64,000 bases of DNA from the NCBI GenBank assembly GCA_951406725.2, contig OX597818.1, positions 110,980,001 through 111,044,000 on the forward strand, written 5' to 3'. Within the stretch, counting starts at the first letter, position 1; the number at the start of each line of letters is the position of its first letter. The notes below the pieces were generated by a model that saw nothing but the letters and a program-made list of their open reading frames with translations, did not search any database and was not told the origin of the DNA. Source of the DNA: Octopus vulgaris (taxonomy: Eukaryota). Of the stretch, positions 5,604 to 62,115 are shown piece by piece. Position numbers and translations under genes: made by a program.

Positions 5604-5662
5604 TCAACAACTCCTTTGTCAATATCTCCCCTGTCCAGGACTTTCAAGAGATTTTCGTAACC
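5604..5662 (-). CDS. Micro-exon B4 (59 nt): [19 protein letters not shown](E/D)
   Basis: Acceptor atttatag, donor gtaaat at the position homologous to the other B exons. Confidence 0.83.

Positions 5663-62115: not shown

What the first reader, a model, noticed from the sequence alone, without database searches (positions are those of the whole stretch)
5604..62115. Hidden 18-micro-exon gene encoding an unrecognised ~31-aa helical tandem-repeat protein
Seen in sequence: 18 tiny minus-strand exons alternate strictly between 34 nt (3n+1) and 56/59/62/65 nt (3n+2). Each has a pyrimidine-rich AG acceptor and a GT donor, and they occur in an invariant A-B-D-C order over 56 kb. Joined, they give about 284 stop-free codons with a consensus [GE]YxxFLxx[LV]...D/G...AKxLAExYFxG. 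Coding sequence is about 1.5% of the span and none of it appears in the ORF track. Inference: this is a real, selected gene, because an intact frame in 18 of 18 divergent copies among decayed TEs is unlikely by chance. I do not recognise the family; it may be lineage-specific and mis-annotated.
Basis: partly seen in the sequence, partly recalled or inferred. Interest (0 to 1): 0.92.

Follow-up and report, generated by a model that had tools for sequence, protein, structure and literature searches.

The report
Octopus p47-derived 94-exon repeat gene
The tiny exons are the middle of a real, octopus-lineage gene copied from its neighbour p47 (a ubiquitin-handling adaptor), which grew 37 short helical repeats whose introns keep being made alike while each exon keeps its own older sequence; what the protein does is still inferred.

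Summary
Confirmed, and larger than reported. The 18 exons are exons 44-61 of a 94-exon, 322-kb minus-strand gene (2,064 aa, no internal stop) holding 74 array exons, or 37 units of about 32 aa. It is not hidden: a public Octopus vulgaris hypothetical protein is identical to my model, and O. sinensis has a 33-unit model. Relatives were found only in Octopus and Argonauta. The gene lies head-to-head with p47/NSFL1C and shares three intron positions with it. It carries UBA-like domains and a SEP-like remnant, but lacks the p97-binding UBX domain and SHP box, ending instead in an Ala/Glu/Lys tail. The surprise is evolutionary: between copies, exons differ at 37% of bases while kilobases of flanking intron differ at 8-13%, and 18 of 22 testable exons are closer to their O. 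bimaculoides counterpart than to the copy with the near-identical intron. The best reading is that introns are homogenised by interlocus exchange that stops at exons. Function is inferred (about 0.4): an intracellular, p97-uncoupled ubiquitin-binding scaffold. Spliced reads and the repeat's fold remain unproven.

The parts
62082..62115 (-). gene exon 44, short exon of unit 16 (34 nt)
   Evidence: near-identical to exon at +129,913; absent from the O. sinensis model
52625..52686 (-). exon 45, long exon of unit 16 (62 nt)
   Evidence: absent from the O. sinensis model
49520..49553 (-). exon 46, short exon of unit 17 (34 nt)
   Evidence: absent from the O. sinensis model
47672..47736 (-). exon 47, long exon of unit 17 (65 nt)
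   Evidence: absent from the O. sinensis model
38740..38773 (-). exon 48, short exon of unit 18 (34 nt)
   Evidence: absent from the O. sinensis model
34915..34973 (-). exon 49, long exon of unit 18 (59 nt); clearest exon-limited divergence peak
   Evidence: differs from the exon at -12,408 at 28 of 59 bases, while 50 of 1,328 distal intron bases differ; a 2,437-nt 94% match ends at the exon's first base
33455..33488 (-). exon 50, short exon of unit 19 (34 nt)
31818..31882 (-). exon 51, long exon of unit 19 (65 nt)
30756..30789 (-). exon 52, short exon of unit 20 (34 nt)
28608..28666 (-). exon 53, long exon of unit 20 (59 nt)
24105..24138 (-). exon 54, short exon of unit 21 (34 nt)
22673..22737 (-). 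exon 55, long exon of unit 21 (65 nt)
21301..21334 (-). exon 56, short exon of unit 22 (34 nt)
18753..18814 (-). exon 57, long exon of unit 22 (62 nt)
12277..12310 (-). exon 58, short exon of unit 23 (34 nt)
10896..10951 (-). exon 59, long exon of unit 23 (56 nt)
9105..9138 (-). exon 60, short exon of unit 24 (34 nt)
5604..5662 (-). exon 61, long exon of unit 24 (59 nt)
1..64000 (-). the whole window lies inside the gene. Outside it, in extended window coordinates: start codon +205,869; exons 1-13 with four UBA-like copies; array +151,801 to -86,625; exon 88 with a fifth UBA-like copy; SEP-like exon 93 at -110,214; terminal exon -115,049 to -116,066; p47/NSFL1C on the + strand from +232,530 to about +263,300
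   Evidence: window = G000:C5:110980001-111044000

Best explanation
SHOWN: a single-copy, 94-exon octopod gene encodes a 2,064-aa protein: four UBA-like domains, 37 two-exon helical units, a fifth UBA-like domain, a SEP-like remnant and a 296-aa Ala/Glu/Lys tail. STRONGLY INFERRED (about 0.85): it arose as an inverted local duplicate of the adjacent p47/NSFL1C gene, lost the p97-binding SHP box and UBX domain, and amplified a cassette of two exons bounded by phase 2 and phase 0 introns, so any whole unit can be gained or lost in frame. INFERRED (about 0.7): same-class introns are repeatedly homogenised by interlocus gene conversion or unequal exchange, whose tracts rarely cross an exon, so each exon keeps an older, position-specific sequence. 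INFERRED (about 0.5): the repeat is a cut-down UBA. LEAST CERTAIN (about 0.4): the protein is a soluble intracellular scaffold that binds ubiquitinated clients through its UBA-like domains without handing them to p97 (a shield or decoy), with the array as a chain of about 18 two-unit four-helix modules offering non-interchangeable surfaces.
For: Gene: 6,195 nt, one stop at the end; identical to public P0014; 1,935 of 1,935 O. sinensis residues align with one 129-aa gap and 39 differences; both exon-plus-flank DNA searches hit only this locus (15 of 15 and 17 of 17). p47 origin: the only SEP-family hits in the genome are the neighbour and one gene on C21; start codons are 26.7 kb apart, head to head; both first coding exons run 35 codons to a phase-0 intron; both have a phase-0 intron eight codons before the end of the KNG motif and a phase-2 intron in the R(R/G)|E codon, while the C21 SEP gene has neither SEP intron; p47 UBA matches residues 8-44 at E 4e-6; Pfam UBA_4 33.8 bits, cut-off 21.8; a two-sequence SEP profile hits only residues 1698-1713, E 0.0096. 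Introns alternate phase 2/0 from intron 3 to 93. [quoted passage not shown] Repeat from UBA: the last 17 residues of p47 exon 1 fit the repeat profile at the shared intron, p 0.003, six slid controls p 0.44-0.89. Intracellular: highest 19-residue hydropathy 1.24, 0.11 near the N terminus.
Against: The SEP-like stretch has no Pfam SEP hit, no BLASTP match to p47 SEP, a global alignment p of only 0.01, and its first 16 residues score higher against the C21 SEP gene (37) than against p47 (24). Profile-profile comparison of repeat and own UBA copies found nothing (probability 0.2%); own UBA exon ends 6 and 88 do not fit the repeat profile, and the p47 fit may be a generic helix-capping motif. Between copies, replacement changes are as frequent as silent ones (39 silent and 144 replacement single-change codons, 37.6 silent expected; dN/dS 0.66-1.43 by class), which does not look like tight conservation of each surface. 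The 164 alignments are those of 648 same-class pairs whose introns align far, which favours similar introns; all pairs show the same direction more weakly (exons 62-67% identical, near flanks 71-87%). Five of the 22 orthologue rows rest on an unanchored fragment (P0005); without them the count is 13 wins, 3 losses, 1 tie. The species calibration is a genome-wide mean, not this locus. Structure models are weak (pTM 0.26; UBA regions mostly under pLDDT 50).
Confidence: 0.5

Rival explanations
1. The exon peaks come from strong positive selection after recent whole-unit duplications, as in an immune or gamete-recognition arms race; introns simply date the duplications.
For: dN/dS near 1 overall despite fixed core positions, 1.43 in one class; repeats differ from O. 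sinensis at 28 of 1,060 residues against 2 of 579 outside, p 4e-4, and from O. bimaculoides at 215 of 703 against 122 of 557, p 5e-4; 10 of the 28 differences fall within residues 1292-1344.
Against: Positive selection does not raise four-fold sites (12/50 against 7.2%), and does not explain exons being closer to another species' counterpart than to the intron twin (18 of 22). It may act in addition to homogenisation.
Confidence: 0.2
2. Introns are homogenised, but the barrier at exons is mechanical, not adaptive: once exons diverged, mismatch rejection stops tracts there. The array is then a weakly constrained spacer in which only frame and helix core matter.
For: Replacement and silent rates are about equal; only core positions are held, such as Tyr in 31 of 37 and Phe/Leu in 36 of 37 long exons, Phe in 27 of 34 short exons; unit number differs between models (37 here, 33 in O. 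sinensis; gaps in O. bimaculoides pieces). Suppression of conversion by divergence is recalled knowledge.
Against: Something had to make the exons diverge first; counterparts in O. bimaculoides keep 72% identity (231 of 319) in colinear order.
Confidence: 0.25
3. Intron similarity reflects purifying selection on splicing elements needed to include very short exons.
For: Flanks within 60 nt are more alike than exons across all pairs; splice sites are well kept.
Against: Similarity is flat to 1.5 kb, includes repeat-derived DNA, and is no higher near the exon (13% at -60 to -21) than far from it (8-10%); the two flanks have different nearest copies.
Confidence: 0.07
4. The repeat is a degenerate EF-hand pair captured from another gene, with a calcium-independent or calcium-sensing role.
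For: Predicted unit is helix, loop, three-residue strand, helix, with a two-unit period; many of the 50 rows of one structure search are EF-hand proteins at Z 4.9-5.6.
Against: All Z under 6.6, in the range the tool calls common; no EF-hand title among the 50 rows for the second model; no match to the recalled EF-hand loop pattern in 2,064 residues; no Pfam EF-hand; the parent p47 has none.
Confidence: 0.12
5. The C-terminal domain is a U-box/RING-like module, making the protein a UBA-bearing ubiquitin ligase.
For: ESM Atlas feature hits for residues 1440-1645 are NleG, U-box and baculovirus RING clusters, scores 0.76-0.82.
Against: Scores under 0.9 are leads only, and a third of shuffled proteins reach 0.8; no Pfam or PDB sequence match to such families; both intron positions and the K-N-G-x-x-x-D-x-G-x-x-R spacing match p47 SEP.
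Confidence: 0.08

Closest known systems
p47/NSFL1C (Shp1, UBXN2 group of p97 adaptors)
   Same: N-terminal UBA, SEP-like region, three shared intron positions, adjacent locus. Domain order UBA-SEP-UBX and their roles are from PMC13277968 (passages).
   Different: Five UBA-like copies, 37 inserted repeats, eroded SEP, no SHP-like motif or UBX, 296-aa Ala/Glu/Lys tail, 94 exons, fast evolution (18-35% residue difference from O. bimaculoides by region).
Argiope MaSp2 and flagelliform silk genes with homogenised repetitive introns
   Same: Repeat units delimited by iterated introns of alternating types that are homogenised within the gene (PMC9779670, passages; its authors knew no other gene with two alternating homogenised intron types).
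   Different: Here four intron classes cycle, introns are 0.7-11 kb and 85-98% alike rather than about 97.6%, and the exons are not homogenised but keep position-specific sequences across species.
Primate red/green opsin exon-5 'peak of divergence' under gene conversion
   Same: High divergence confined to an exon with low divergence in flanking introns, read as selection restricting conversion (PMC3924837, passages).
   Different: One peak between two genes there; here the pattern recurs over dozens of exons inside one gene.
EF-hand pair domains, and DCN1 (UBA plus PONY domain)
   Same: Helix-loop-short strand-helix units in pairs; weak structural hits include EF-hand proteins and DCN PONY domains.
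   Different: No canonical calcium loop; matches are not above background; no sequence support.

Membership tests
p47/NSFL1C-type p97 adaptor | N-terminal UBA domain | tested here: met
   Pfam UBA_4 33.8 bits over cut-off 21.8, UBA_8 29.3 over 26; BLASTP to neighbour's UBA E 4e-6
p47/NSFL1C-type p97 adaptor | SEP domain | tested here: inconclusive
   no Pfam SEP hit; two intron positions and KNG motif spacing shared; small-profile hit E 0.0096; not folded with confidence
p47/NSFL1C-type p97 adaptor | SHP box | tested here: not met
   no F-x-G-x-G-x-x-L-G (pattern recalled) in 2,064 residues; the neighbour has it
p47/NSFL1C-type p97 adaptor | C-terminal UBX domain | tested here: not met
   no UBX family at E up to 1; the C terminus is a 296-aa tail with 136 Ala, 53 Glu, 39 Lys
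p47/NSFL1C-type p97 adaptor | binds ubiquitin and p97 | not testable with these tools
   needs pull-downs; of five UBA-like copies only the first keeps Phe at the position of p47 Phe41, whose role in ubiquitin binding is recalled and was not found in print
EF-hand calcium-binding proteins | 12-residue loop with ligands at 1, 3, 5, 9, 12 | tested here: not met
   0 matches to the recalled PROSITE-type pattern; no Pfam EF-hand
EF-hand calcium-binding proteins | paired helix-loop-helix fold with short strands | tested here: inconclusive
   secondary structure fits; Z 4.9-5.6 rows, none by title; low-confidence models
U-box/RING E3 ligases | U-box or RING domain | tested here: inconclusive
   Atlas lead under 0.9; no Pfam or PDB sequence hit
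Regulated micro-exon programmes | exons of 51 nt or less (limit recalled) | tested here: met
   37 of 74 array exons are 28-37 nt
Regulated micro-exon programmes | tissue-regulated, individually skippable in frame | tested here: not met
   every array exon is 3n+1 or 3n+2, so only pairs can be skipped in frame; tissue regulation itself was not testable

The most novel reading that the evidence does not exclude
A housekeeping p97 adaptor gave rise, in octopods only, to a new repeat family made from half a UBA domain. Its 37 units are held individually distinct by selection against constant intron-driven homogenisation, so each two-unit module has its own partner or ubiquitin-chain preference, and in-frame skipping or gain of exon pairs varies the set between tissues and species: a combinatorial intracellular recognition protein of cephalopods.
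Probability: 0.2. Interest if true: 0.8.

Novelty: new variant of a known kind. Interest (0 to 1): 0.6.

Why it matters
It traces an apparently orphan cephalopod protein to a named parent through synteny and intron positions, and shows a route from a p97 adaptor to a new repeat family. It also offers dozens of replicated exon-sized divergence peaks inside one gene, a natural test of how selection or sequence divergence limits gene conversion. The coding sequence is already in public databases as a hypothetical protein; I found no paper naming the loci or proteins or discussing octopus NSFL1C by title or abstract, within a library that lacks most subscription journals.

Tried and rejected
RNA: no RNA holder listed for the terminal exon; 20 of 24 listed runs hold the stretch, none on record as RNA. 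Four runs laid on window 5300-25200 were dominated by repeat-element contigs; none of the 15 joints shown joins two exons and 376 were not shown, so the test is inconclusive. Complex prediction of ubiquitin with four repeat units gave no answer. Foldseek found no match at E 0.001 or better for either model; VIA-align best Z 6.3 and 6.5, none at 8 or more, with CUE/UBA rows at Z 4.8-5.6 on the copy after the array. ESM Atlas gave no usable hit for repeat residues 820-1030. PDB sequence searches gave only low-complexity or chance rows. hhalign of repeat against own UBA copies: none. Rfam on the window: 0 matches. Earlier scan findings: none. Literature: Phe41 passage not found; octopus micro-exon search listed 3 papers, one opened and irrelevant; PMC9795677 passages did not give the needed divergence. 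Rejected: repeat-element or satellite artefact (open frame over 74 exons, orthologues in four species); pseudogene (no stop, no broken copy); secreted or membrane protein. Supplements were not consulted; expression tables in octopus transcriptome supplements could bear on tissue and isoforms.

Full report
Observation. The 18 exons are there exactly as described: 858 nt, 1.52% of the span, one stop-free frame of 285 codons, YAG acceptors and GT donors, a strict short/long alternation and a four-class cycle. Shuffled bases give a mean of 22.9 stops and never fewer than 11. The window is G000:C5:110,980,001-111,044,000; coordinates below extend the window's numbering.

Extent. Profile searches over 464 kb found 74 array exons from +151,801 to -86,625, forming 37 units, 1,189 codons, no stop, with introns of 704-11,046 nt. 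A long Ala/Glu/Lys-rich exon downstream found O. sinensis XP_036358878.1, 1,935 aa. Mapping it back gave 13 upstream and 7 downstream exons: 94 exons, 6,195 nt, 2,064 aa, 321,936 nt. A public O. vulgaris hypothetical protein (P0014) is identical over all 2,064 residues and has 12 more at the N terminus. The gene is therefore annotated but uncharacterised. These records are gene predictions, so they show agreement on the model, not spliced reads; my own read test was inconclusive. The O. sinensis model lacks one 129-aa block, units 15-18, which covers the first six window exons; part of that block is a 3,985-nt, 94.5% copy of the unit 5-6 region.

Range. HMMER over 1.84 billion representatives with the O. 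bimaculoides N-terminal piece returned 6 proteins: O. sinensis, four consecutive partial Argonauta hians models and one unnamed 75-aa record. Word-indexed searches added O. bimaculoides pieces and P0014. Squid and cuttlefish proteins may be poorly represented, so 'octopod-restricted' means none found. Two exon-plus-flank DNA searches of the genome hit only this locus.

Origin. Pfam finds UBA-like domains; exon layout shows four copies before the array and one after. A SEP-family search of the genome hit the gene next door and one on C21. The neighbour is p47/NSFL1C, on the opposite strand, start codons 26.7 kb apart, with UBA, SEP, SHP and a UBX-type end. Three introns coincide: after codon 35, before the KNG strand of SEP, and in the R(R/G)|E codon. 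The C21 SEP gene shares neither SEP intron, although its first strand is closer in sequence. p47 exon 1 ends in phase 0 and exon 2 in phase 2; in the new gene introns alternate phases 2 and 0 from intron 3 to 93, so UBA cassettes and repeat units share one phase pattern. The gene fails membership as a p47-type adaptor (no SHP motif, no UBX) but descends from one. Domain roles in p47 are from passages of PMC13277968.

The repeat. AlphaFold gives each unit a three-residue strand, a 12-residue helix and a 10-residue helix, with ten-residue mean pLDDT of about 45-85 in the repeats and pTM 0.26 overall. Structure-search matches cover about 60 residues, two units, which fits the two-unit sequence period, but no match stands above background. 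The last 17 residues of p47 exon 1 fit the repeat profile at the shared phase-0 intron (p 0.003; six slid controls not significant), as do three of five own UBA exon ends (p 0.007-0.02), while hhalign sees nothing. A UBA origin is plausible, not shown; an EF-hand-like shape is the rival, without calcium loops.

The unexpected result. Copies differ more in exons than in introns. Over all 648 same-class pairs exons are 62-67% identical and near flanks 71-87%. Of 399 alignments spanning an exon, the 164 with at least 400 distal intron bases show 36.9% exon difference against 8-13% in every intron bin to 1.5 kb; 24 disjoint pairs picked by length give 29.8% against 7.2%, exon higher in 22. Four-fold sites are also raised (12 of 50 in the 19 same-length pairs), and of the 22 of 48 exons with an O. 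bimaculoides counterpart, 18 are closer to it than to the intron twin, 3 the reverse, 1 tied; two of the three reversals are the recent block duplication. Upstream and downstream flanks pick the same nearest copy in 16 of 74 cases, and 6 of 8 flank-versus-exon distance correlations... more exactly 7 of 8 are not significant at 0.05. [quoted passage not shown] So exons are older than the last exchange between their introns. This is the signature described for opsin exon 5 (PMC3924837, passages), and resembles spider MaSp2 introns (PMC9779670, passages), except that here exons stay distinct. Whether selection or divergence itself blocks exchange at exons is open: replacement and silent changes are about equally frequent, while a few hydrophobic core positions are held, and repeats evolve faster between species than the rest of the protein.

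How it most likely works. With no signal peptide or membrane segment, several UBA-like domains and no p97-docking motifs, the simplest role is a soluble scaffold that binds ubiquitinated clients but does not deliver them to p97, with a long chain of small helical modules and a helical tail. If the SEP remnant still self-associates it could also pair with p47. These steps are inference from p47 biology, about 0.4. Only the first UBA copy keeps the Phe recalled as needed for ubiquitin binding in p47.

Verdict. Real gene, already annotated as hypothetical, not described in the papers searched. New here: the p47 ancestry and the repeated exon-limited divergence. New variant of a known kind; interest 0.6.

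Noticed in passing
extended window +246,665 to +246,764 (G000:C5 about 111,226,665): A 100-N assembly gap lies in the p47 intron where one expected coding exon was not found.
   Followed up: partly
extended window -150,020, minus strand: Start of a SCYL2-like kinase gene (name recalled from the translated start) 34 kb past the stop codon, same strand.
   Followed up: no
G000:C21:23,688,691-23,688,849 (L041): Second SEP-domain gene, resembling UBXN11 (name recalled), with different intron positions.
   Followed up: partly
model residues 1292-1344 (units 29-30, extended window about -29,400 to -32,000): 10 of the 28 repeat differences from O. sinensis cluster here.
   Followed up: no
extended window +159,209, plus strand: A 1,014-aa open frame of endonuclease/reverse-transcriptase type in intron 12 (type judged by eye).
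   Followed up: no
window 39,609-40,676: Nested 67-nt and 193-nt tandem arrays of a dispersed repeat inside an array intron.
   Followed up: no
model exons 7-8 and exon 94 start: By eye, a motif after the third UBA copy resembles the stretch after the SEP-like region; not tested.
   Followed up: no
P0005, P0007 (O. bimaculoides): These models skip whole units relative to this genome (residues about 1068-1194 and 1474-1507), in frame: copy-number difference or skipping.
   Followed up: partly
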